From positions 1 to 40,629 of the IMG/VR virus record IMGVR_UViG_3300039008_000041: a stretch of 40,629 nucleotides of DNA; one strand, given 5' to 3'. The notes below the pieces were generated by a model, which had not been told where the DNA came from, did no database searches, and saw only the letters and a program-made list of their open reading frames with translations. The position numbers and the translations under genes were made by a program. Below are positions 1 through 40,629 of the stretch, in pieces (the stretch's first letter is position 1; each line of letters opens with the position of its first letter). The stretch is from a virus.

Positions 1-141
1 AAAATTATTTAAAATTGAAGCTTTAATTGATATTGAAAAATATAATATTAAGAAAGGTGATTTAGGTGGCTATATTGAGAGTGAGAAAAATTTAGAAATA
101 TCTGGCGACGCTTGGGTATCTGGCGACGCTAGGGTATCTGG
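1..141. repeat. Terminal direct repeat, copy 1 (identical to 40489-40629). This is the signature of a circular or circularly permuted genome with a 40,488 bp unit.
   Basis: Read by eye: bases 1-141 match 40489-40629 base for base, and a reading frame continues across the junction. Confidence 0.9.
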
Positions 142-742
142 CGACGCTTGGGTATCTGGCGACGCTAGGGTATCTGGCGACGCTTGGGTATCTGGCGACA
201 CTAGGGTATATGGCGACGCTAGGGTATCTGGCGACGCTTGGGTATATGGTAACGCTAGGGTATCTGGTGACGCTGAGATATATGGCAACGCTGAGATATA
301 TGGCAACGCTGATATATATGGTAACGCTGAGATATATGGTAACGCTGAGATATATGGCAACGCTGAGATATATGGCGACGCTAGGGTATCTGGCGACGCT
401 TGGGTATCTGGCGACGCTTGGGTATCTGGCGACGCTGAGATATATGGCAACGCTGAGATATATGGCAACGCTAGGGTATCTGGCGACGCTGAGATATATG
501 GCAACGCTAGGGTATCTGGAGATAATGTAGAATATAGAAAAGATACTTACAATATAACATCTAATTCACAGTATAATATAACAATTACACCTAACTTTAT
601 TAAAGTAGGATGTAAGTTTTATAGTAAAGAAGAATGGTGGAATTTCACAGATAAAGAAATATTAGAAATGGACGGTAAAAAGGCGCTATTATTCTGGAGA
701 AAATGGAAACCAATTTTAAAAGCTATTTGTGATAAAAATTAA
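2..742 (+). CDS. C-terminal 246 codons of a hexapeptide-repeat (beta-solenoid-like) protein of unknown function. The gene starts at 40439 and wraps the junction (263 aa in total).
   Basis: The frame of position 2 is open from the window edge to TAA at 740-742. It translates as KLFKIEALIDIEKYNIKKGDLGGYIESEKNLEI, then about 24 units of SGDAWV / SGDARV / YGNAEI, then ...ITPNFIKVGCKFYSKEEWWNF...KAICDKN. It is absent from the ORF track because there is no ATG inside the window start. The track ORFs 210-530(+) and 70-504(-) are other frames of the same repeat. Confidence 0.8.
   Translation, partial: KLFKIEALIDIEKYNIKKGDLGGYIESEKNLEISGDAWVSGDARVSGDAWVSGDARVSGDAWVSGDTRVYGDARVSGDAWVYGNARVSGDAEIYGNAEIYGNADIYGNAEIYGNAEIYGNAEIYGDARVSGDAWVSGDAWVSGDAEIYGNAEIYGNARVSGDAEIYGNARVSGDNVEYRKDTYNITSNSQYNITITPNFIKVGCKFYSKEEWWNFTDKEILEMDGKKALLFWRKWKPILKAICDKN
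101..532 (+). repeat. Tandem array of about 24 units of 18 bp (tctggcgacgcttgggta / tctggcgacgctagggta / tatggcaacgctgagata), in frame and coding.
   Basis: Units start at 101, 119, 137 ... 497. The last unit (515-532) is degenerate. Neighbouring units differ by 0-6 nt. Confidence 0.9.
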
Positions 743-755
743 GGAGATTTAAACC

Positions 756-1157
756 ATGAAAAAACAAAATTTAAAAGAATACAGCTCTAACAATCCAAAC
801 CCGGATGATATTATGGTAGGCGATAGACTTCGTTTTTTAAGACAAACTCGCGCTTACTCTCAAGAAAAGCTAGGCGATGCTTTGGGCATTACGTTTCAGC
901 AGGTGCAAAAGTATGAAAATGCTACTAATAGAATTAGTGCAAGTAAGCTTATTGAAATCTGCAGAATTTTCAACACTAACCCTTGCTACTTCTTTTCTGA
1001 TTATGATAAAATTGAAGACTGCGATGCTGTTGAAAATGCAAATGCTAGTAAAATGTCACGCTACGCTAGGCTTGTGGGTAAATTAGACAAACTACCGCAA
1101 GAGGATATTATTTTTATTAATAGCGTAGTTAATAGAATGTCAAAAAATAAAGGGTAG
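756..1157 (+). CDS. XRE/Cro-C1 family helix-turn-helix transcriptional regulator
   Basis: The segment VGDRLRFLRQTRAYSQEKLGDALGITFQQVQKYENATNRISASKLIEICRIF is a classical HTH_3 pattern. An RBS aaggag lies upstream. Confidence 0.75.
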   Translation: MKKQNLKEYSSNNPNPDDIMVGDRLRFLRQTRAYSQEKLGDALGITFQQVQKYENATNRISASKLIEICRIFNTNPCYFFSDYDKIEDCDAVENANASKMSRYARLVGKLDKLPQEDIIFINSVVNRMSKNKG

Positions 1158-1161
1158 TATT

Positions 1162-1560
1162 ATGGATAATCATAAATTTAGAGTTTTTAATAAAGTAGTT
1201 AAAAAATATATTGATGATTTTTTAATCGGAGATGATGGAAGATTATATAGCAATTTGAATAACGGCAACTGCGTTCCATTAAAAAAAGAATTCTATAAAA
1301 TAGAATTTTGCACAGGTCTTAAAGATAAAAACGGTAATTTGATTTATGAAGGGGATATTATTAAGCTTAAATCAAATTATGATAAGCGAGGAAATGAAAG
1401 AGTTAAGCATTATATTAATGAGGTTTATTTTTCAACAGCAAAATTTAGGAACTGCTTTTGTATAAAAAATGGTAAATTTACAACACAATTATACGGACTA
1501 GGTAGTAATATAGAAATAATTGGCAATATTCACGAAAACCCAGAACTATTGGAGAGTTAA
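1162..1560 (+). CDS. YopX-family phage protein
   Basis: GLKDKNGNLIYEGDII and the C-terminal IEIIGNIHENPELL are typical YopX signatures. Confidence 0.7.
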   Translation: MDNHKFRVFNKVVKKYIDDFLIGDDGRLYSNLNNGNCVPLKKEFYKIEFCTGLKDKNGNLIYEGDIIKLKSNYDKRGNERVKHYINEVYFSTAKFRNCFCIKNGKFTTQLYGLGSNIEIIGNIHENPELLES

Positions 1561-1563
1561 AAT

Positions 1564-1770
1564 ATGAATAAAGAAGAAAATAAATCAGAAAAACTAGAAT
1601 ACGAATGCATTGATTGCTGTAAAAAAGATGATGAAATGGATACTTGCGATAATTGCGGACAACCTTGTTGCTGTGGCGATTATTATTCTGGGGATGCTTA
1701 TCTATGCGTTGATTGTGGGAGTAATTGGTGGGAAGAAGACATAGGCGATGAGAAAGAAGAGGATGAATAA
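1564..1770 (+). CDS. Small Cys-rich (zinc-ribbon-like) protein with an acidic tail
   Basis: Contains CIDCC...CDNCGQPCCCG...CVDCG followed by the tail EEDIGDEKEEDE. Tightly packed in the operon. Confidence 0.55.
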   Translation: MNKEENKSEKLEYECIDCCKKDDEMDTCDNCGQPCCCGDYYSGDAYLCVDCGSNWWEEDIGDEKEEDE

Positions 1771-1972
1771 ATTTATTTGCAAATGTTGCGGTAATGAAAA
1801 AACAGTCTTAAGACCTAGGGGTTTCTCTTGGGTCTTGGGGCTGGTAGGGTTGATTATATTCGTACCGCTTGTTTTAGTTGGCTTTGCCTGGAGTAAGACT
1901 TTAATTCCACATTGTAGTGTTTGCGGTTCTAAAAGATTAAAGAAAATAAAAATGGAGGAGCAGAATGTATAA
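1748..1972 (+). CDS. Small membrane protein with split CxxC zinc-ribbon motifs
   Basis: CKCCG ... hydrophobic span VLGLVGLIIFVPLVLVGFAW ... CSVCG. It overlaps the previous gene by 23 nt. Confidence 0.5.
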   Translation: MRKKRMNKFICKCCGNEKTVLRPRGFSWVLGLVGLIIFVPLVLVGFAWSKTLIPHCSVCGSKRLKKIKMEEQNV

Positions 1973-2279
1973 TTTATATTTAGATGATGAAAGAACGCCA
2001 AAGAATGAAACACCTTTTTTTATTGTTAGAAACTATGAGGATTTTAAGTATACAATAATGGAGAATGGTATTCCTAGCTATATATCATTCGACCATGATT
2101 TAGGAGATACTAAAACGGGCTACGATTGCGCTAACTGGCTACAATGTTATGTAATAATGAATGGCGTAAAAATTCCGTATAATTTTAACTATAATGTTCA
2201 TTCTGCTAATCCGGTAGGGGTTAAAAGAATAGTTGACTGCATAGAAAGCTTATTAAGGATGGTAAAAAATGACTCTTAA
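1965..2279 (+). CDS. Receiver-like domain protein of the cREC type (cyclic-phosphate-processing receiver domain family), standalone
   Basis: LYLDDERTP ... ISFDHDLGDTKTGYDCANWL ... VHSANPVG matches my memory of the family signature LDDxR / DHDLG / tGyd / HSxNpvG. Confidence 0.55.
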   Translation: MYNLYLDDERTPKNETPFFIVRNYEDFKYTIMENGIPSYISFDHDLGDTKTGYDCANWLQCYVIMNGVKIPYNFNYNVHSANPVGVKRIVDCIESLLRMVKNDS

Positions 2280-2472
2280 AAAATTAATAAAAAACGATGA
2301 GTTTGTAGATTTCAGATTTAAAAATAAATTTAATGATGAACTTTTTTGCACAAATGGAGATGAAGTACATCCATCTGAAATATATAATTACAAGCTTGAT
2401 TATTTTATTGGCTTATCTTCTATAATCGACTTGCTAGATGAAGAAGTGGAGATTGTAAATGAAAGAGTATAA
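2269..2472 (+). CDS. Hypothetical protein
   Basis: ORF overlapping its neighbours in operon style. No motif recognised. Confidence 0.5.
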   Translation: MTLKKLIKNDEFVDFRFKNKFNDELFCTNGDEVHPSEIYNYKLDYFIGLSSIIDLLDEEVEIVNERV

Positions 2473-2971
2473 ACTTCAAAAAAAATGGCTTACTGAAAAA
2501 TTAGACGGCACTAAGATTGATCTACCAGATGTTAAAGACGATGCTTTTGTTTACGTGCAGTTTATGGATGAAAAGCAATATAAATCAAAAAAGCAAAATG
2601 ATACTTTCCATGCTTTGCTGGATACTTATTGGGCTAGTGGTTGCAGTAGCTTTATTAGCTATGAAGATTTAAGAATTCACTATAAAACTGTAGCCGGGCT
2701 TGTGACTAGAGAGCGTTTACCTTTGAGTGATGGTCTTATGTCTGTGCTTAAGTGGCTTTATAAGCAACTTAGAAATAAGGGTCAGGATGCTGTAAAGGAT
2801 GAGCTGGGCTTGTTAATTAGTAAAGGTAAAGAAAAAGAGCGAAGTTGGTCTGGTGTATCTAACAAAAAAGCAACTTTAGCAATTCAAACTCTTATTGACG
2901 ACATGCATGAAAGCCGAGTAAACACTGATAAATTTTTAGAAATTTTAGAAGGGATGGGGAATGTACTTTAA
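2459..2971 (+). CDS. Hypothetical protein, tentatively NinB/Orf-like recombination mediator
   Basis: KSKKQNDTFHALLDTY resembles the NinB SxxQN...a.l segment, and the gene is followed by a YbcO-like gene as in lambdoid nin regions. The similarity is weak and judged by eye only. Confidence 0.35.
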   Translation: MKEYKLQKKWLTEKLDGTKIDLPDVKDDAFVYVQFMDEKQYKSKKQNDTFHALLDTYWASGCSSFISYEDLRIHYKTVAGLVTRERLPLSDGLMSVLKWLYKQLRNKGQDAVKDELGLLISKGKEKERSWSGVSNKKATLAIQTLIDDMHESRVNTDKFLEILEGMGNVL

Positions 2972-3257
2972 ACAAAAAAGACTAGTTGATAAAAAATACC
3001 TTGAATCTGCACGTGACATGGCTTGTTTAATTTGCGGGTCACGTGGTGATGTTGTAATGCATCATCTTAGAATTGGTATTGGTGGTGGCGTTGGCTTAAA
3101 GCCCGGGGATGATTGTTGCGTACCTTTATGTTATTGTCATCATGCTGAAATAAACCAAGGAGAGGCTAGTTTTGTTAAAAAATGGCGTTATATATTTGGA
3201 AATGACCCGGTTTCTTTTGCTAAACTACTATATAAAAGATATAAAAGTGCAAAATAA
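2961..3257 (+). CDS. YbcO/DUF1364-like zinc-binding phage nuclease
   Basis: CLICGSRGDVVMHHLRIGIGGGVGLKPGDDCCVPLCYCHHAEIN parallels the YbcO pattern C..C...aH.R...G.G.KP.D....C..CH.EI. Confidence 0.55.
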   Translation: MYFKQKRLVDKKYLESARDMACLICGSRGDVVMHHLRIGIGGGVGLKPGDDCCVPLCYCHHAEINQGEASFVKKWRYIFGNDPVSFAKLLYKRYKSAK

Positions 3258-3279
3258 TTGCATTTTTTTAAATAAAGAC

Positions 3280-3334
3280 TTTACTTTTAATAAATCAGAT
3301 GTTATCTTATTATTAGGTTAACAAATAGAAAGGT
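3280..3334 (+). promoter_or_regulatory. Phage promoter plus conserved leader, copy A
   Basis: -35 TTTACT (3280-3285), 17-nt spacer, -10 TATCTT (3303-3308), 6 nt, then AGGTTAACAAATAGAAAGGT (3315-3334). The ATG is at 3342. Confidence 0.6.
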
Positions 3335-3341
3335 TTATAAA

Positions 3342-3707
3342 ATGTCAAAATTTTACAAAATAAAAAATATAAATAACGACCCGTTCGATACTATTGTGGG
3401 GTTTATAGAAGAGCATAATTGCCGTCTAGCAGAAATAATTGAAGAGTGTTTTTGCGAAGATGAGTCTAATACTCTGTTTATGTTTAATGAAGAAATAACC
3501 CCTGATGAATGCATCGAGCTTGGAGCAGAAAAGTTTGCAACTGGCGACGGATGGGATGCGCCTATTGAGTATCATTTACGTGGGGATAAGAAAGCAATTG
3601 CTGATGCTTATATTGCTAGAATTGCAAATGGTGCTTGCCTAAGTGGTAACTTTTATAGTTTCTTATTAGGTCAGGTTATAGAAAATTTACCGAGCTTGGA
3701 GGGTTAA
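3342..3707 (+). CDS. Hypothetical protein
   Basis: First ORF after promoter/leader copy A. No motif recognised. Confidence 0.6.
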   Translation: MSKFYKIKNINNDPFDTIVGFIEEHNCRLAEIIEECFCEDESNTLFMFNEEITPDECIELGAEKFATGDGWDAPIEYHLRGDKKAIADAYIARIANGACLSGNFYSFLLGQVIENLPSLEG

Positions 3708-5093: not shown

Positions 5094-5105
5094 TCTATTT
5101 TTTAC

Positions 5106-5159
5106 TTTACTTTTAATAAATTACTTGTTATAGTATTTATAGGTTAACAATAGAAAGGT
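5106..5159 (+). promoter_or_regulatory. Phage promoter plus conserved leader, copy B
   Basis: -35 TTTACT (5106-5111), 17-nt spacer, -10 TATAGT (5129-5134), 6 nt, then AGGTTAACAATAGAAAGGT (5141-5159). CTTTACTTTTAATAAAT is shared with copy A. Confidence 0.6.
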
Positions 5160-5167
5160 ATAAAAAT

Positions 5168-5356
5168 ATGACTAATCTACAAAAAGTAAATAAACAAGGT
5201 AAACTATTAGTTAAGGTTTCGTCTGTATTGGCTATTAGTTTAATTTTAAATATTGTACTATTTTGGCAGTTCTTAAATAAAACATCTGACTACGCTGATT
5301 GCATGTATAGTTTAACTCAAGAAGTAGCTAAAAACGACTTTAACAAAGGAGTGTAA
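5168..5356 (+). CDS. Small membrane-anchored protein
   Basis: One hydrophobic span, VSSVLAISLILNIVLFWQFL. First ORF after leader copy B. Confidence 0.55.
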   Translation: MTNLQKVNKQGKLLVKVSSVLAISLILNIVLFWQFLNKTSDYADCMYSLTQEVAKNDFNKGV

Positions 5357-7161: not shown

Positions 7162-7256
7162 TTATATCTGTAAAAAGTTTAATAATTTTTTTGTTGCTTA
7201 TGATGCGTACTATAGAGAATGCCAAGAGCAGAAAAAGAAAACGCAAAATAGAGTAT

Positions 7257-7288
7257 AAAAAGAGGGAGGTTAGTACCTCCCTCTTTTT
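7257..7288. terminator. Bidirectional intrinsic terminator between convergent blocks
   Basis: aaaa-AGAGGGAGG-ttagta-CCTCCCTCT-tttt: a perfect 9-bp GC-rich stem flanked by an A-run and a T-run. Confidence 0.8.
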
Positions 7289-7400
7289 ATACTAATACAA
7301 TTGCTATCCCTATCATTATTGCCATTGCAACTATCATTTTAAAGAATATAGCAAAAGGACTTGCAGGTCTTCGGTAATAATAATCTCTTCGACTAAACAT
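7287..7400 (-). CDS. 37-aa membrane peptide, last gene of the lysis cassette (not in the ORF track)
   Basis: Translates as MFSRRDYYYRRPASPFAIFFKMIVAMAIMIGIAIVLV. Its start overlaps the upstream stop as ATGTTTAG. It ends inside the terminator. Confidence 0.45.
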   Translation of the reverse strand: MFSRRDYYYRRPASPFAIFFKMIVAMAIMIGIAIVLV

Positions 7401-17119: not shown

Positions 17120-17721
17120 TTACTCTTCCTTATTTAAAAATTGTATAGCCTCTGTGTAATCATTATCGAACTTCTCGTATTCTATAACTTTTAAAACCAC
17201 ATCTACCGGGGCTTGCATTACTCTTTCCGGGTCGCCGGTAAAATAGCCAAGTTTGGCAAGTTTAATAGCTATAAAATAGCTTTCGTCGTTTATTTCTGTT
17301 TTTGGCTTTCTGATGTTACCATCGCTGTGATGTTTGGTAACGCTGAAAGCACGTTCCTGAAAAAAGGTTCTAGGTTATCCTTTATGCAGAAAAACATAAT
17401 TTCGTAGTAATCAACCCTAACCTCTTCTTTTTCGAATAATCTCTCTGTTACTTTTTCGTCGTTATAAGTACAGCGCTCTAAGCATTTAAAAGTAGCTTTG
17501 TAAACGTCTTCTGAACTATCAACTGAAAGTATCGCATTTACTATTCCTGAGAAGATGCTTTGCGAGTTGCCTTTTTTTAAGCTTTCAATATCAAGATTGC
17601 CTAATTGTGATAAATCTTCGCTTTTAATTGTTTTTTGAATTGCATTTTTTAAATTCATTACATCCCTAAAAGGGGCGATGTTGACAGTTAAATCAGCACC
17701 GCTTTTTGTTTTATAATCCAT
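17120..17721 (-). CDS. Tail assembly chaperone, -1 frameshift fusion product (GT-like, about 200 aa)
   Basis: Minus-strand slippery heptamer T_TTT_TTC (plus 17359-17365) in zero-frame codons CCT TTT TTC. I read the -1 frame as open from there to TAA at 17120-17122 (...QERAFSVTKHHSDGN...YTEAIQFLNKEE), ending just before the tape-measure ATG. Confidence 0.6.
17290..17721 (-). CDS. Tail assembly chaperone (G-like, zero-frame product)
   Basis: Lies between the tube and the tape measure, and contains the slippery site described below. Confidence 0.65.
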   Translation of the reverse strand: MDYKTKSGADLTVNIAPFRDVMNLKNAIQKTIKSEDLSQLGNLDIESLKKGNSQSIFSGIVNAILSVDSSEDVYKATFKCLERCTYNDEKVTERLFEKEEVRVDYYEIMFFCIKDNLEPFFRNVLSALPNITAMVTSESQKQK

Positions 17722-27872: not shown

Positions 27873-27998
27873 TTACTTAAAATTATCATTTGAAATTATA
27901 CCAGGGTATGCTCTCTGCTCCCACATCTTCGATAAATACGCTTTTTGCTGGTTAGTAAGCCAGAACTCGCATTGCCATATTAGCCATTGATTAAACAT
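27873..27998 (-). CDS. 41-aa Trp-rich peptide, first ORF of the cassette (not in the ORF track)
   Basis: Translates as MFNQWLIWQCEFWLTNQQKAYLSKMWEQRAYPGIISNDNFK. RBS GAGGAG lies within the conserved leader. Confidence 0.45.
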   Translation of the reverse strand: MFNQWLIWQCEFWLTNQQKAYLSKMWEQRAYPGIISNDNFK

Positions 27999-28010
27999 TT
28001 TTGATTTTCT

Positions 28011-28062
28011 CCTCTATTTGTTAACCTATATATAGTGTAAACCTTTTTTTACTAAAAGTAAA
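28011..28062 (-). promoter_or_regulatory. Phage promoter plus conserved leader, copy C (minus strand)
   Basis: Minus strand: TTTACT (28057-28062), 17-nt spacer, TACACT (28034-28039), 6 nt, then AGGTTAACAAATAGAGG (28011-28027). Confidence 0.6.
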
Positions 28063-37139: not shown

Positions 37140-37305
37140 TTTTCTTTTGCTCCTGTAAATATTTTAAAATTGTGATTTTTCGCACCAGCCTTTGCTCGCA
37201 AATACTTATCTCGTGCCTTTTACCCATATCTCTAAAAGTTTCGATTTCTGCTATTGTGCTTTCTATCTCTTCGCTTAGAGTTTCTATATATTTTTGATGG
37301 TTCAT
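37132..37305 (-). CDS. 57-aa helical protein, first ORF after promoter/leader copy D (not in the ORF track)
   Basis: Translates as [57 protein letters not shown]. It overlaps the ssb start. RBS aaaggt. Confidence 0.45.
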
Positions 37306-37324
37306 AGTTTTACCTTTCTTTTAT

Positions 37325-37368
37325 GTTAACCTTTCTTTTATTGTACTACTATTTTTTATAAAAGTAAA
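37325..37368 (-). promoter_or_regulatory. Phage promoter plus conserved leader, copy D (minus strand)
   Basis: Minus strand: TTTACT (37363-37368), 17-nt spacer, TACAAT (37340-37345), 7 nt, then AGGTTAAC (37325-37332). Confidence 0.55.
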
Positions 37369-37695: not shown

Positions 37696-38133
37696 TTATG
37701 ACACGTAGCTGTATAGCTCTTCTTCTTTCTGCGGGCTGTTAATTAAAAAGTATTTAAAGCCTCGGCTCTCTATTTCTTTTTGGAATTCTACCTGATCCGG
37801 GGTTTGTTTGGTTTTGCCGATTATATTACCAGTTTTTCCAATACCCCACTTTTTAATCTCTACGAATATAACCTCTTTTTTAGATATTACAATTAAATCG
37901 CTTTGACCTTTGGTTAAGCCTTGACTTTGTATGTAACTAATAAATCCCATTCTCGCTTTTTGATTTCTGCCCATGAACATTAGCGCTATTGTTACATCGC
38001 TGCAGATTGTTATGCAGTTCTTTATCCTTAGCATTTTTACTATTCTTTGCTGTATCTTATGCTCGCTTACTGTTAGCACTACCTGCTTTGGAGTGACACT
38101 TTTTCTTTTAATTGCTGTGCTGTTTATATTCAT
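37696..38133 (-). CDS. VRR-NUC domain nuclease (PD-(D/E)xK superfamily)
   Basis: GQSDLIVISKKEVIFVEIKK...TPDQVEFQKEIESRGFKYFLI fits the VRR-NUC D...ExK...Q pattern. Confidence 0.6.
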   Translation of the reverse strand: MNINSTAIKRKSVTPKQVVLTVSEHKIQQRIVKMLRIKNCITICSDVTIALMFMGRNQKARMGFISYIQSQGLTKGQSDLIVISKKEVIFVEIKKWGIGKTGNIIGKTKQTPDQVEFQKEIESRGFKYFLINSPQKEEELYSYVS

Positions 38134-38180
38134 GTTAATCTCTTTTTTTGCGTTATTGTCCTATTATAGCATATTTTATG

Positions 38181-38209
38181 TTGACATGCCACCATTTGCC
38201 TGATAGTAT
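38181..38209 (+). promoter_or_regulatory. Near-consensus extended -10 promoter, face-to-face with a minus-strand promoter
   Basis: Plus strand: TTGACA (38181-38186), 17-nt spacer ending TGa, TAGTAT (38204-38209). On the minus strand, TTGATT (38225-38230), a 16-nt spacer and TACTAT (38203-38208) use almost the same -10 bases. Confidence 0.6.
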
Positions 38210-38215
38210 AAAAGT

Positions 38216-38318
38216 ATTCTAAAAAATCAATAACTAGGGATTTATCTCCTATCTGTTGCTTTTCTAGATGTTAACCTAAGGGCAGGGCTTGACCATTCGG
38301 GCTTTGCTCTTCTTTTTT
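38216..38318 (+). ncRNA. Candidate ~100-nt small RNA carrying an anti-leader sequence
   Basis: Begins about 7 nt after the 38204-38209 -10 box. There is no ORF. It ends in a 14-bp hairpin (38278-38291 / 38298-38311) with 5 G-U pairs that are valid only on the plus-strand RNA, followed by C + TTTTTT (38313-38318). Segment 38258-38277 is complementary to the conserved leader. Confidence 0.45.
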
Positions 38319-38498
38319 ATTTCATATCTTAATTATTGCCCTATTTTATGCTTGAATCATGCAATATAAACCATTTCTTCGACTATATACACGTTTTTAT
38401 GCAAAAATAATGCATAAGTCGGTTTTTGAAATAGTCAGTTTTTTATTTCCACCCGGCTCTATAAGGCTACAAGGTTAACAAATAGAAAGAGTTTAAAT

Positions 38499-38582
38499 AT
38501 GTACACACTAACAATCATCGCTACTTTATTAATTATTGATAGACTATTTTTTTCTGAAAAGGTCTTGAATTATAAAAAATAG
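38499..38582 (+). CDS. 27-aa hydrophobic peptide preceded by the conserved leader (copy E, 38472-38489)
   Basis: Translates as MYTLTIIATLLIIDRLFFSEKVLNYKK. AGGTTAACAAATAGAAAG lies 9 nt upstream of the ATG. Confidence 0.4.
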   Translation: MYTLTIIATLLIIDRLFFSEKVLNYKK

Positions 38583-38649
38583 TTATTATATTAAAATTGT
38601 AATAAAAATCTCCAAAGAGCGCCTACCTTAATCGGGGGCGACTTTTTTA

Positions 38650-38678
38650 TTGACAGCTTATTAAAACTAGTATAGCAT
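38650..38678 (+). promoter_or_regulatory. Candidate sigma70-type promoter
   Basis: TTGACA (38650-38655), 17-nt spacer, TAGCAT (38673-38678). Confidence 0.5.
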
Positions 38679-38686
38679 ATTTATAT

Positions 38687-38735
38687 GGGCTAGTTACCTC
38701 CTATTTTTATACAACACAATTACTATAGCTAGCCC
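38687..38735 (+). other. 10-bp RNA hairpin with a CCUCCU-initiated 29-nt loop
   Basis: GGGCTAGTTA (38687-38696) pairs with TATAGCTAGCCC (ending at 38735), including one G-U pair. The loop starts CCTCCT. A long T-run follows at 38760-38773. Confidence 0.3.
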
Positions 38736-38775
38736 TACCCCTTACCTTCTTTTAGCGGGTTTTTATTTTTTTTAG

Positions 38776-38804
38776 TTGACTTTAAGTAAAACTAATGGTA
38801 TACT
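38776..38804 (+). promoter_or_regulatory. Promoter of the replication-organiser operon
   Basis: TTGACT (38776-38781), 17-nt spacer, TATACT (38799-38804). RBS aaggag lies before the ATG at 38838. Confidence 0.6.
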
Positions 38805-38837
38805 TTTAGCATCTTATAAAAATAAGGAGTAAGTTAA

Positions 38838-39050
38838 ATGCAAGTAAATCAAGAAAAAACAATCAACCGTCTACATAACAGACATTATGCAAAAATAATA
38901 GACAAACTGGAGCAGGTTAATGCACCGGCAATTATTATTGACACGGTAAAACAGCAATTTTCCTTTTATACAAAGGATATCAAAGAGCAAGTATTAAGTA
39001 AAAGCAAGGATTATAAATATGAAAAACAAAACGACTATAACTCTCTATAA
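38838..39050 (+). CDS. Hypothetical protein
   Basis: First ORF after the 38776 promoter. Strong RBS. Confidence 0.6.
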   Translation: MQVNQEKTINRLHNRHYAKIIDKLEQVNAPAIIIDTVKQQFSFYTKDIKEQVLSKSKDYKYEKQNDYNSL

Positions 39051-40375: not shown

Positions 40376-40431
40376 TTGACTTTAGGTAAAGCATGAATTA
40401 AGCTAATATATAGGTTAACAAATAGAAAGGT
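40376..40431 (+). promoter_or_regulatory. Phage promoter plus conserved leader, copy F
   Basis: TTGACT (40376-40381), 17-nt spacer, TAAGCT (40399-40404), 7 nt, then AGGTTAACAAATAGAAAGGT (40412-40431). The ATG is at 40439. Confidence 0.6.
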
Positions 40432-40438
40432 AAATAAA

Positions 40439-40629
40439 ATGAAAAAATATAAACTAAGAGAAGACTTAACAATAGATATTTTTGGTAAAAAATTATTTAA
40501 AATTGAAGCTTTAATTGATATTGAAAAATATAATATTAAGAAAGGTGATTTAGGTGGCTATATTGAGAGTGAGAAAAATTTAGAAATATCTGGCGACGCT
40601 TGGGTATCTGGCGACGCTAGGGTATCTGG
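40439..40629 (+). CDS. N-terminal part of the hexapeptide-repeat protein (continues at position 2 after circularisation)
   Basis: Translates as ATG ... MKKYKLREDLTIDIFGKKLFKIEALIDIEKYNIKKGDLGGYIESEKNLEISGDAWVSGDARVS and runs off the window end. Bases 40489-40629 duplicate 1-141. Confidence 0.8.
   Translation, partial: MKKYKLREDLTIDIFGKKLFKIEALIDIEKYNIKKGDLGGYIESEKNLEISGDAWVSGDARVS
40489..40629. repeat. Terminal direct repeat, copy 2
   Basis: Identical to 1-141. Confidence 0.9.

What the first reader, a model, noticed from the sequence alone, without database searches (positions are those of the whole stretch)
38216..38318. Candidate trans-acting small RNA complementary to the shared leader and Shine-Dalgarno of the phage's own early mRNAs
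A near-consensus extended -10 promoter is followed, with no ORF, by about 100 nt. These end in a 14-bp hairpin whose five G-U pairs are valid only in the plus-strand RNA, followed by a U-run.

Immediately 5' of that hairpin, GCUUUUCUAGAUGUUAACCU (38258-38277) can pair with the conserved leader AGGUUAACAAAUAGAAAGGU over 20 positions. That gives 16 Watson-Crick pairs, 2 G-U pairs and a 2-nt internal mismatch, and it covers the GAAAGG ribosome-binding site.

Read on the minus strand, this is another copy of the leader motif, but it has no -10 box upstream (CTGCCCTT) and no ORF downstream. An antisense function is therefore the more economical reading. One small RNA could thus translationally silence or destabilise the whole leader-bearing regulon (copies at 3315, 5141, 28027, 37332, 38472 and 40412). 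I am not aware of a described phage system of this kind.
Basis: partly seen in the sequence, partly recalled or inferred. Interest (0 to 1): 0.7.

Follow-up and report, generated by a model that had tools for sequence, protein, structure and literature searches.

The report
Phage small RNA antisense to shared leader
A roughly 100-nt non-coding RNA gene in a novel myovirus carries a sequence complementary to the 27-nt leader that heads most of the phage's operons, so one RNA could throttle most of the phage's own protein synthesis; nothing has been tested experimentally.

Summary
A strong sigma70-type promoter (TTGACA-17-TGaTAGTAT, 38181-38209) is followed, with no ORF, by about 100 nt. These fold into a 5' hairpin, a 9-nt single-stranded linker UGUUAACCU and a 15-bp terminator hairpin with a U-run. 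The terminator is stable only on the plus strand (-19.2 vs -4.9 kcal/mol).

Bases 38258-38277 pair with the leader AGGUUAACAAAUAGAAAGGU over 18 of 20 positions (0 of 5000 shuffles as good). The six leaders rank among the eight best sites in the genome.

The only relative found (L004, about 79% identical in genes) keeps the promoter. It keeps 60 of 64 RNA-body positions, with a 20/20 anti-leader and one compensatory pair. Its terminator sequence differs but still pairs.

So an independent plus-strand small RNA gene is well supported. Antisense control of the leaders is the best reading but remains inferred.

Corrections:
- The leaders are complete 27-nt 5' UTRs of operons covering about 92% of the genome, including structural genes, so they are not "early" mRNAs.
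- Only 9 nt of the anti-leader are accessible.
- A minus-strand nuclease gene does lie downstream, but it has its own promoter.

A DNA operator, cis action or a non-leader function are not excluded. This is a new variant of phage antisense regulation.

The parts
38181..38209 (+). Promoter of the small RNA: -35 TTGACA (38181-86), 17-nt spacer, TG (38201-02), -10 TAGTAT (38204-09)
   Evidence: 10 of 12 matches, TG present. In L004 both hexamers and the TG are kept (TTGACA/17/TGaTAATAT) while the spacer differs at 5 positions.
38216..38319 (+). Predicted small RNA, about 100-105 nt. The TSS is inferred at about 38214-38217 and the 3' end lies in the U-run 38313-38318.
   Evidence: MFE -31.5 kcal/mol, z -4.15; minus strand z -2.1. 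No Rfam family or tRNA matches. 60 of 64 body positions are identical in L004, against about 79% identity in the flanking genes.
38218..38268 (+). 5' hairpin of the RNA; its 3' arm holds the distal half of the anti-leader
   Evidence: All 19 pairs are kept in L004, and the apical pair changes A-U to C-G (compensatory).
38258..38277 (+). Anti-leader GCUUUUCUAGAUGUUAACCU, complementary to +1..+20 of the leader, Shine-Dalgarno included
   Evidence: It is 20/20 identical in L004. Net predicted interaction energy with the six leaders is -7.8 to -15.6 kcal/mol after opening costs.
38269..38277 (+). Single-stranded 9-nt seed UGUUAACCU between the two hairpins
   Evidence: Unpaired in the MFE and centroid structures of both phages. 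The opening energy is 0.2 kcal/mol. It is the exact complement of the invariant leader block AGGUUAACA.
38278..38319 (+). Intrinsic terminator: 15-bp hairpin (38278-38311, five G-U pairs) followed by CUUUUUUA
   Evidence: plus -19.2, minus -4.9 kcal/mol. In L004 the stem sequence differs (2 pairs changed on both sides, 3 on one side, none broken) and it is again plus-strand-specific (-20.2 vs -2.8).
38163..38192 (-). Divergent promoter (GTGGCA/18/TGcTATAAT) of the nuclease gene 38133-37696, back to back with the sRNA promoter
   Evidence: conserved in L004 (TGtTATAAT).
3315..3341 (+). Leader copy (27-nt 5' UTR; ATG at 3342) behind promoter CTTTACTTTTA...TATCTT
   Evidence: Net interaction -11.8 kcal/mol.
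5141..5167 (+). Leader copy with a 1-nt deletion; ATG at 5168; heads the Sak-like annealing protein / exonuclease block
   Evidence: Net interaction -13.0 kcal/mol.
38472..38498 (+). Leader copy 194 nt downstream of the anti-leader; ATG at 38499 opens a 27-codon hydrophobic ORF
   Evidence: inverted repeat I1. Net interaction -7.8 kcal/mol. It pairs in cis with the seed in a modelled read-through transcript.
40412..40438 (+). Leader copy behind TTGACT/17/TAAGCT; ATG at 40439; the operon appears to continue across the window end into 1-3257
   Evidence: This is the best predicted target (net -15.6 kcal/mol).
37306..37332 (-). Leader copy; ATG at 37305; heads the block from SSB through the methylase and terminase to the portal gene
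   Evidence: Net interaction -10.9 kcal/mol.
27999..28027 (-). Leader copy with SD GGAG; ATG at 27998; heads the head-tail-lysis block
   Evidence: Net interaction -9.3 kcal/mol.

Best explanation
The segment 38181-38319 is a free-standing gene for a plus-strand small RNA of about 100 nt. It sits in the divergent control region between the nuclease gene and the replication genes. A host-type sigma70 promoter should make it from the start of infection.

Proposed mechanism (inferred).
1. The single-stranded 9-nt seed UGUUAACCU nucleates on the extreme 5' end (AGGUUAACA, +1 to +9) of every mRNA that starts with the shared 27-nt leader.
2. Pairing then zips across a 2-nt internal loop into the Shine-Dalgarno (GAAAGG, +14 to +19) by displacing the 3' arm of the sRNA's own 5' hairpin.
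3. Covering the ribosome-binding site of the first cistron blocks initiation.
4. Through loss of translation-coupled protection (Rho polarity, RNase attack), this lowers expression of the whole operon.

The leaders head operons covering about 92% of the genome. The nuclease and replication genes next to the sRNA lack the motif, and the 83-aa gene beside the nuclease carries only a diverged variant (AGAUAAACA). The RNA would therefore act as a global gate or threshold, delaying or damping everything except the immediate-early functions until target transcripts outnumber it or its promoter is shut off.

Shown: promoter and terminator anatomy, strand specificity, conservation, and complementarity with its statistics.

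Inferred: that the RNA is made, that it pairs in vivo, the direction of the effect (repression), and its timing role.
For: Gene anatomy.
- The promoter scores 10 of 12 with TG.
- The RNA has a two-hairpin fold with z -4.15.
- The terminator folds at -19.2 kcal/mol on the plus strand versus -4.9 on the minus strand.
- There is no ORF.

Conservation in the only relative, L004 (about 79% nt identity in the flanking genes).
- Promoter hexamers and TG are kept while the spacer varies.
- 60 of 64 body positions are identical and the anti-leader is 20/20.
- The terminator is 24 of 39 columns identical, yet every pair is kept. Across the whole RNA, three pairs changed on both sides and three on one side.
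- The L004 RNA folds the same way, with the same 9-nt linker unpaired.
- DNA just past the terminator has no detectable similarity.

Complementarity.
- 18 of 20 positions pair with the leader. None of 5000 shuffles is as good (z -6.5).
- The six leaders are among the eight best sites on both strands of the genome.
- Net energies after opening costs are -7.8 to -15.6 kcal/mol, and the leaders themselves are nearly unstructured (opening 0.2-4 kcal/mol).
- The 5' half of the RNA has no outlier target in the phage.

Target side.
- Every leader starts 6-7 nt after a -10 box, that is at +1.
- AUG is at +28 in five of six copies.
- Positions 1-18 are conserved among paralogues and between the two phages, while the sequence after the SD varies freely.

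Mismatch pattern. Two of the four DNA-level mismatches to the leader consensus are transitions that keep RNA pairing as G-U. This is read from the sequence and is weak evidence, about 1 in 9 by chance.
Against: - There are no expression data of any kind.
- Only two genomes carry the element, and their seeds and leaders are the same. Seed-target covariation, the decisive comparative test, is therefore impossible.
- Eleven of the 20 anti-leader bases are locked in the 5' hairpin (7-9 kcal/mol to open).
- The core GTTAAC is a palindrome, which inflates the chance of antisense resemblance. A protein that binds the leader DNA would recognise the inverted copy equally well.
- The host is unknown, so the presence of Hfq or ProQ, RNase E and Rho is unknown.
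- A repressor of nearly all phage genes needs a relief mechanism, and none is visible in the sequence.
- Operon extents are inferred from gene orientation and recognisable promoters only.
Confidence: 0.5

Rival explanations
1. DNA operator. The about 20-bp leader sequence is the binding site of a phage DNA-binding protein, for example the conserved 133-aa HTH protein at 756-1157. This site sits at +1..+20 of the regulated promoters. The inverted copy inside the sRNA gene (+45..+64) would be one more operator, acting as a roadblock or autoregulatory site. Its RNA complementarity would be a side effect.
For: - The motif sits at a fixed position relative to at least six promoters.
- Its core GTTAAC is palindromic, as seen in the sequence.
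- HTH regulators are encoded.
- An inverted copy would be conserved and would co-vary with the other copies just as an antisense seed would.
Against: - The whole 64-nt RNA body is conserved, not only the 20-bp site. A compensatory pair in the 5' hairpin and a terminator conserved in structure but not in sequence point to selection on the RNA.
- The exact complement of the invariant leader block falls precisely in the single-stranded linker between two hairpins.
- Beyond 6 bp the site has no dyad symmetry.
- The central two positions differ in the inverted copy.
Confidence: 0.12
2. Cis-acting element. The RNA is the 5' part of a longer rightward transcript. Its terminator is an attenuator or insulator. 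In read-through transcripts the anti-leader pairs in cis with the neighbouring leader at 38472, masking that one ribosome-binding site. The arrangement would resemble c4-ant or a long-range anti-SD element. The other leaders would not be physiological targets.
For: - The anti-leader and the 38472 leader form an inverted repeat 194 nt apart (I1).
- In a modelled 38214-38530 transcript the MFE structure pairs UGUUAACCU with AGGUUAACA.
- The order sRNA, then leader-bearing promoter, is kept in L004.
Against: - The terminator is strong. In L004 it is followed by two more terminator hairpins before the leader, so little read-through is expected.
- The 38472 leader has its own conserved promoter.
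- It is the weakest of the six predicted targets.
- The ORFs behind it are unrelated in the two phages: 27 aa versus 61 aa.
Confidence: 0.12
3. The small RNA is real but does something else: it might act on host mRNAs, titrate a protein, or take part in replication control next to the replication genes. The anti-leader would be inherited from an inverted copy of a promoter-leader cassette and would not be its functional seed.
For: - Known phage sRNAs often act on host targets, for example lambda PreS on dnaN and VP882 VpdS (PMC12197685).
- The first 26 nt of the RNA are also 100% conserved in L004 but have no target in the phage.
- The gene lies in the control region upstream of the replication genes.
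Against: - The anti-leader is the only segment with outlier complementarity to anything in the phage.
- It is 20/20 conserved.
- It occupies the accessible linker.
- A relic would not be expected to stay perfect at about 79% background identity.
Confidence: 0.15
4. By-product short transcript of an antitermination-controlled promoter, like lambda 6S / StxS made from PR'-tR'. The promoter-terminator pair would exist to be read through when a phage antiterminator is present, and the RNA itself would have no role.
For: - A strong promoter is followed within about 100 nt by a terminator.
- There are three tandem terminators in L004.
- StxS shows that such by-products exist and can even be regulatory (PMC7547250).
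Against: - The genes downstream on the same strand are a tiny non-conserved ORF and replication genes. These have their own consensus promoters at 38650 and 38776.
- The late genes are on the other strand.
- No antiterminator was recognised among the proteins scanned.
- This reading leaves the complementarity (0 of 5000 shuffles) unexplained.
Confidence: 0.06

Closest known systems
c4 antisense RNA of phages P1 and P7 (immI region)
   Same: It is a small, structured phage RNA. Its short exposed sequences pair with the ribosome-binding region of the phage's own mRNA and block expression (PMC12197685).
   Different: c4 is processed from the same transcript as its single target operon (icd-ant) and controls immunity of a temperate phage (the processing is from my own knowledge). 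The RNA here has its own promoter and terminator and targets at least six dispersed operon leaders. No Rfam family matched it, and no lysogeny genes were found.
CI RNA of satellite phage P4 and the related CA RNA of N15 (from my own knowledge; not read here)
   Same: One small phage RNA pairs with repeated target sequences near the 5' ends of the phage's own transcripts. This shuts down downstream genes, partly through premature termination or polarity.
   Different: The P4 targets (seqA, seqC) lie in the same transcript that yields the RNA, and the outcome is prophage immunity. Here the targets are 5' UTRs of separate promoters, including structural operons, and there is no sequence or Rfam similarity.
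VpdS of vibriophage VP882 and PreS of lambda (Hfq-dependent trans-acting phage sRNAs)
   Same: They are free-standing phage-encoded trans-acting sRNAs. VpdS affects both phage and host mRNAs (PMC12197685; bioRxiv 10.1101/2024.10.31.621285).
   Different: Their known targets are individual, unrelated mRNAs, mostly host ones. No shared leader regulon has been described. Nothing similar was found by sequence among 50,697 phage records.
Lambda 6S RNA / StxS (the PR'-tR' short transcript)
   Same: A strong promoter is followed closely by an intrinsic terminator, giving an abundant short non-coding RNA. StxS is itself regulatory (PMC7547250).
   Different: Those RNAs lie directly upstream of the late operon and depend on Q antitermination. 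Here the same-strand downstream genes are replication genes with their own promoters, and the late genes are on the opposite strand.
Type I toxin-antitoxin pairs with a separately encoded sRNA (IstR-1/TisB type; from my own knowledge)
   Same: An sRNA gene lies next to a short hydrophobic ORF (27 aa, 38499-38582) and is about 20 nt complementary to that ORF's 5' UTR.
   Different: In L004 the ORF is replaced by an unrelated 61-aa ORF. The same complementarity also applies to five other operon leaders.

Membership tests
Trans-encoded base-pairing small RNA (free-standing gene) | Own promoter | tested here: met
   TTGACA/17/TGaTAGTAT scores 10 of 12. The hexamers and TG are conserved in L004 while the spacer varies. 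This is a consensus match, not a mapped TSS.
Trans-encoded base-pairing small RNA (free-standing gene) | Intrinsic terminator with U-tail on the transcribed strand | tested here: met
   15-bp hairpin followed by CUUUUUUA. Plus strand -19.2 versus minus strand -4.9 kcal/mol; the same asymmetry holds in L004.
Trans-encoded base-pairing small RNA (free-standing gene) | Non-coding | tested here: met
   No plausible ORF exists: there is only a 3-codon ATG frame and a TTG frame inside the terminator.
Trans-encoded base-pairing small RNA (free-standing gene) | Accessible seed complementary to translation-initiation regions of unlinked targets | tested here: met
   The 9-nt linker opens at 0.2 kcal/mol. 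Pairing covers 18 of 20 positions with net -7.8 to -15.6 kcal/mol. The leaders are the top sites genome-wide, and 0 of 5000 shuffles match.
Trans-encoded base-pairing small RNA (free-standing gene) | Seed conserved, or co-varying with targets, across relatives | tested here: inconclusive
   The seed and anti-leader are 20/20 identical in L004. Only two genomes exist and the leaders are the same, so covariation cannot be scored.
Trans-encoded base-pairing small RNA (free-standing gene) | The RNA accumulates, pairs with and regulates targets in vivo (chaperone binding where relevant) | not testable with these tools
   There are no transcriptome data, and the host is unknown.
P1/P7 c4 antisense RNA | Sequence and structure match to the curated RNA family | tested here: not met
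   No Rfam family matches at gathering score in the window. In 38100-38900, matches up to E = 10 did not include this family, and none overlaps the RNA at 38216-38319.
P1/P7 c4 antisense RNA | Processed out of the same transcript that carries its target just downstream | tested here: not met
   The RNA has its own promoter and terminator, and its targets are at six distant promoters.
Lambda 6S / StxS type PR'-tR' transcript | Lies directly upstream of the late (lysis/structural) operon on the same strand | tested here: not met
   Downstream on the plus strand are a 27-aa ORF and replication genes with their own promoters. The structural and lysis genes are on the minus strand.
Lambda 6S / StxS type PR'-tR' transcript | Q-type antiterminator encoded upstream | not tested
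   About 40 of the roughly 60 ORFs were scanned and none was annotated as an antiterminator. The remaining ORFs were not scanned.
Type I toxin-antitoxin with a separately encoded sRNA | Conserved small hydrophobic toxin ORF paired with the sRNA | tested here: not met
   The 27-aa hydrophobic ORF in the window is replaced by an unrelated 61-aa ORF in L004.
Repressor operator (DNA site) | Repeated site at a fixed position in the regulated promoters, with a cognate DNA-binding protein | tested here: inconclusive
   The fixed position +1..+20 is met. Dyad symmetry is limited to GTTAAC. Binding by a protein cannot be tested here.

The most novel reading that the evidence does not exclude
A virulent-looking myovirus uses one small RNA as a global riboregulator of its own genome. 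Nearly all operons (about 92% of the DNA) begin with the same 27-nt 5' UTR. An immediate-early sRNA, complementary to that UTR from the very 5' end through the Shine-Dalgarno, sets a post-transcriptional threshold or timer for middle and late expression. It might also provide RNA-based exclusion of superinfecting relatives. A diverged leader class (AGAUAAACA) would mark genes that escape the sRNA.
Probability: 0.4. Interest if true: 0.8.

Novelty: new variant of a known kind. Interest (0 to 1): 0.6.

Why it matters
Phage temporal programmes are usually explained by transcription: sigma factors, activators, antiterminators and phage RNA polymerases. Known phage antisense RNAs act on one gene or one operon (c4, sar, OOP, P4 CI) or mainly on host mRNAs (PreS, VpdS).

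A single sRNA matched to a leader shared by almost every operon would be a genome-wide post-transcriptional switch. The nearest conceptual parallel is the common leader of some eukaryotic viruses.

The idea is directly testable with a Northern blot and leader-reporter fusions. The 27-nt leader plus sRNA pair would also make a compact, portable regulatory module. The element lies in an uncultured phage lineage with almost no database relatives, so it also shows how much phage RNA regulation is missed by protein-centred annotation.

Tried and rejected
Searches for relatives.
- blastn against 50,697 phage records found nothing. The 1.5-kb query gave no match, and the 151-nt query gave only chance hits at E >= 2.
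- Exact and degenerate DNA patterns for the leader, the anti-leader, the promoter plus leader, and the sRNA 5' part were scanned in viral, genome and metagenome contigs. They returned nothing or single chance hits with no other similarity to the window.
- Protein-guided locus searches in IMG/VR found nothing useful.
- Homologue searches with the nuclease, the 213-aa protein and the 233-aa protein gave one true relative that covers the locus (L004). They also gave identical copies (L002, L003), short contigs of more distant relatives that do not cover the locus (L006, L043-L046) and unrelated lambdoid phages (L047, L048).

Known RNA families. There is no Rfam family, tRNA or tmRNA.

Minus-strand leader reading. 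Rejected: there is no promoter (4 of 12), no ATG within 40 nt, and the hairpin is unstable on that strand.

Second seed. The 5' half of the RNA has no outlier target in the phage.

Second orphan promoter unit (38650-38775). Its loop is 83% complementary to the next gene's 5' UTR, but this is no better than shuffles (375 of 3000). It is not claimed.

Methods. Whole-RNA duplexfold scores were abandoned because U-tails and hairpin arms give spuriously good energies against A-rich mRNAs. I used local duplexes with opening energies instead.

GTTAAC (HpaI site) avoidance. Not present: 25 sites observed versus 13 expected.

Type I toxin-antitoxin and Q-antitermination readings. Considered and set aside; see the membership tests.
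Full report
THE WINDOW. The window is 35% G+C. It looks like a complete, circularly permuted genome of a tailed phage with a contractile tail.
- It encodes a tail sheath, baseplate, tape measure, major head protein, portal, large terminase and endolysin on the minus strand.
- It encodes replication, recombination and methylase genes.
- No tRNA genes were found. About 40 of the roughly 60 ORFs were scanned and none is an integrase.
- The same contig occurs in a JGI metagenome and in a Logan assembly, and these copies are 100% identical across the locus.
- Nothing similar exists among 50,697 deposited phage genomes.

THE OBSERVATION.
- Promoter: a perfect -35 (TTGACA, 38181-86), a 17-nt spacer, TG and TAGTAT (38201-09). 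It is one of the three best plus-strand promoter matches in the last 3.6 kb.
- No ORF: the next 100 nt or so hold no credible ORF.
- Fold on the plus strand: a 5' hairpin (38218-38268), a 9-nt unpaired linker UGUUAACCU (38269-77), and a 15-bp hairpin (38278-38311) followed by CUUUUUUA. The MFE is -31.5 kcal/mol, z -4.15.
- Strand specificity: the terminator hairpin has five G-U pairs. It folds at -19.2 kcal/mol on the plus strand (z -5.3) and -4.9 on the minus strand (z -0.06).
- Pairing: bases 38258-38277 pair with AGGUUAACAAAUAGAAAGGU as 9 bp, a 2-nt internal loop and 9 bp.
- Statistics: none of 5000 dinucleotide shuffles of the RNA body pairs as well with the leader (-24.1 versus -9.3 +/- 2.3 kcal/mol).
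- Specificity: I slid the anti-leader segment over both strands of the genome. The six leaders fall among the eight best sites after the trivial self-complement.

WHAT THE LEADER IS.
- Each copy begins 6-7 nt after a -10 box, so it starts at the predicted +1. AUG is at +28 in five of six copies and at +30 in the sixth. The 'leader' is therefore the entire 27-nt 5' UTR.
- Four copies sit behind an unusual conserved -35 region, CTTTACTTTTA (3279, 5105, 37369-, 28063-). One sits behind TTGACT (40376) and one behind an odd but conserved promoter (38431-38471).
- Judged from gene orientation, these promoters head the following blocks:
  - the plus-strand block 40439 -> 7161 (regulator, methylase, Sak-like annealing protein, exonuclease);
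  - the minus-strand block 37305 -> 28107 (SSB, methylase, terminase, portal);
  - the minus-strand block 27998 -> 7393 (head, tail, lysis).
- Together these cover about 92% of the genome, so the transcripts are not 'early mRNAs'.
- The genes without the AGGUUAACA leader are those flanking the sRNA gene:
  - the nuclease (own TGcTATAAT promoter);
  - the 83-aa gene, which has a diverged leader AGAUAAACA that is also conserved in L004;
  - the replication genes behind TTGACT/TATACT at 38776.
- Leader positions 1-18 are conserved among paralogues and between the two phages, while the bases after the Shine-Dalgarno vary.

COMPARATIVE EVIDENCE. Only one relative covering the locus could be found.
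- L004 comes from an ENA metagenome scaffold. Its nuclease is 74% identical at the protein level, and gene DNA is about 74-84% identical.
- The homologous segment keeps both promoter hexamers and the TG while the spacer changes.
- It keeps 60 of 64 positions of the RNA body and all 20 of the anti-leader. The differences cluster at the tip of the 5' hairpin, where an A-U pair becomes C-G.
- The terminator is only 24 of 39 columns identical, yet every pair is preserved. Two pairs changed on both sides and three on one side, with co-ordinated indels.
- The L004 RNA folds identically, with the same linker unpaired. Its terminator is again strand-specific (-20.2 versus -2.8).
- Immediately past the terminator the sequences become unalignable.
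- This pattern (sequence constraint on the body, structure constraint on the terminator, promoter hexamers kept) is what a functional RNA gene on the plus strand should show. A 20-bp protein site or a decaying relic would not show it.
- In L004 two further terminator hairpins follow the first.

ENERGETICS AND ACCESSIBILITY.
- The seed costs 0.2 kcal/mol to open. The full 20 nt cost 7-9 kcal/mol, because 38258-38268 form the 3' arm of the 5' hairpin.
- The leaders are almost unstructured (0.2-4 kcal/mol).
- Net predicted energies are -7.8 kcal/mol (38472 leader) to -15.6 (40412 leader). The seed alone gives -5.9 to -9.0.
- These values are in the range I know for proven sRNA-mRNA pairs (my own knowledge), but they are predictions.

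MECHANISM PROPOSED. The seed nucleates on the extreme 5' end of each leader-bearing mRNA. Strand displacement then extends the duplex over the Shine-Dalgarno. Initiation of the first cistron is blocked, and polarity or decay lowers expression of the operon.

Because the sRNA promoter is a near-consensus host-type promoter in the immediate-early control region, the RNA would impose a delay or threshold on everything else. Repression rather than activation is inferred from two things: the Shine-Dalgarno is covered, and the leaders have no inhibitory structure to relieve. How repression is lifted is unknown; titration by seven or more target promoters, or shut-off of the sRNA promoter, are possibilities.

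RIVALS.
1. DNA operator read in either orientation. It is not excluded, because an inverted operator would be conserved too. It does not explain the conserved 5' hairpin with a compensatory pair, the structure-only conservation of the terminator, or the placement of the invariant block's complement in the single-stranded linker.
2. Cis action. In a modelled read-through transcript the seed pairs with the neighbouring 38472 leader. However, the terminator is strong (and tripled in L004), that leader has its own promoter, and it is the weakest predicted target.
3. A real sRNA with a different job. The first 26 nt are equally conserved and have no phage target.
4. A 6S/StxS-like by-product of antitermination. 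The downstream same-strand genes have their own promoters and the late genes are on the other strand.
5. A minus-strand leader. Rejected.

COMPARISON WITH KNOWN SYSTEMS. The closest known cases are antisense RNAs by which a phage controls its own genes.
- P1/P7 c4, P22 sar and lambda OOP are reviewed in PMC12197685. P4 CI RNA is from my own knowledge.
- Free-standing trans-acting phage sRNAs include VpdS and PreS (PMC12197685; bioRxiv 10.1101/2024.10.31.621285).
- StxS is a promoter-proximal terminated transcript with regulatory activity (PMC7547250).
- None of these is related in sequence.
- None is described as targeting a leader shared by most of the phage's operons.
- I therefore rate this a new variant of a known kind, resting on solid sequence evidence for the RNA gene and on inference for its function.

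SCORES. Confidence that a plus-strand sRNA gene exists is about 0.8. Confidence that its function is antisense control of the leader regulon is about 0.5. Interest is 0.6.

Noticed in passing
window 3279-3289, 5105-5115, 37369-37359(-), 28063-28053(-): There are two promoter classes. Four leader-bearing promoters share an extended -35 region CTTTACTTTTA (TTTACT/17/-10). The sRNA, the nuclease gene, the replication genes and a few others use canonical TTGACA or TTGACT promoters. The same box occurs in L004. It may be the site of a phage activator and so mark middle/late promoters.
   Followed up: partly
window 37664-37638(-); L004 6478-6503(+): The 83-aa gene next to the nuclease has a paralogous 27-nt leader, AGATAAACAAAGCGAAAGGG. 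Its 5' block differs from AGGTTAACA at two seed positions, and it is conserved as such in L004. It is not among the good predicted sRNA sites and may represent an 'escape' leader class.
   Followed up: partly
window 7643-7618(-): There is a further leader variant, TAGTTAACTAAAAGAAAGGC (ATG at +27). It lies behind a 10-of-12 promoter (TTGACA/17/TACTAT, 7679-7651) for the 74-aa gene downstream of the endolysin. Its predicted duplex with the sRNA is weaker (-17.5 kcal/mol).
   Followed up: partly
window 38650-38775: A second orphan promoter (TTGACA/17/TAGCAT) is followed by about 90 nt with no ORF. This stretch has a 10-bp stem enclosing a 29-nt loop and ends in a U-rich stretch. The loop's UUACCUCCUAUUUUUAUA is 83% complementary to the 5' UTR and SD of the next gene (38815-38832). 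That is no better than shuffles (375 of 3000), and the sequence is not conserved in L004.
   Followed up: yes
window 38499-38582: A 27-codon ORF sits behind the 38472 leader and encodes a hydrophobic peptide with a charged tail (MYTLTIIATLLIIDRLFFSEKVLNYKK), similar in style to a type I toxin or a holin. L004 has an unrelated 61-aa ORF at the same place, although the promoter and leader are conserved.
   Followed up: partly
L043 3245-3418: A more distant relative (47% identity in the 213-aa protein) has an orphan 11-of-12 promoter followed by about 100 nt. This RNA has a structured 5' domain, a 9-nt single-stranded linker CCUUAACUU and a terminator (z -4.1). The 25 nt before the terminator form an anti-RBS (anti-AUG plus anti-SD), and its best matches in the contig are gene starts (down to -25.8 kcal/mol). 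The opposite strand could instead encode an 18-codon ORF, and the locus is not syntenic with the window's sRNA.
   Followed up: partly
L004 5812-5690 (minus strand): In the relative, the sRNA terminator is followed by two more strong terminator hairpins (AGCAAUCGG...CCGGUUGCUUUUUU and GGGCAGG...CCCUGUCCUUUUUU) before the next promoter. These are absent from the window.
   Followed up: no
window 17752-17727(-): The intercistronic ribosome-binding region GGUUAAUAUUUAAAGAAAGGCAACAG lies upstream of the gene starting at 17721. It is the fourth-best predicted sRNA site in the genome (-22.7 kcal/mol), although it is not a promoter-proximal leader.
   Followed up: no
L004 (whole scaffold, 78,164 bp): The scaffold length equals 2 x 39,082 bp, and the gene order suggests the contig starts inside the phage's structural block. 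It is probably a head-to-tail dimer assembly of a circular or terminally redundant genome rather than a prophage with host flanks. This was not verified.
   Followed up: no
window 1965-2279: A 104-aa protein matches the Pfam cREC_REC family (cyclic-phosphate processing receiver domain; E 1.4e-22). It is conserved in L004 and is encoded in the leader-bearing regulator operon.
   Followed up: no
window 7253-7292: A perfect-looking palindrome, GTATAAAAAGAGGGAGGT...ACCTCCCTCTTTTTATAC, lies between the convergent plus-strand and minus-strand blocks. It is probably a bidirectional terminator. It surfaced as the best match to the CCUCC loop of the second orphan unit.
   Followed up: no
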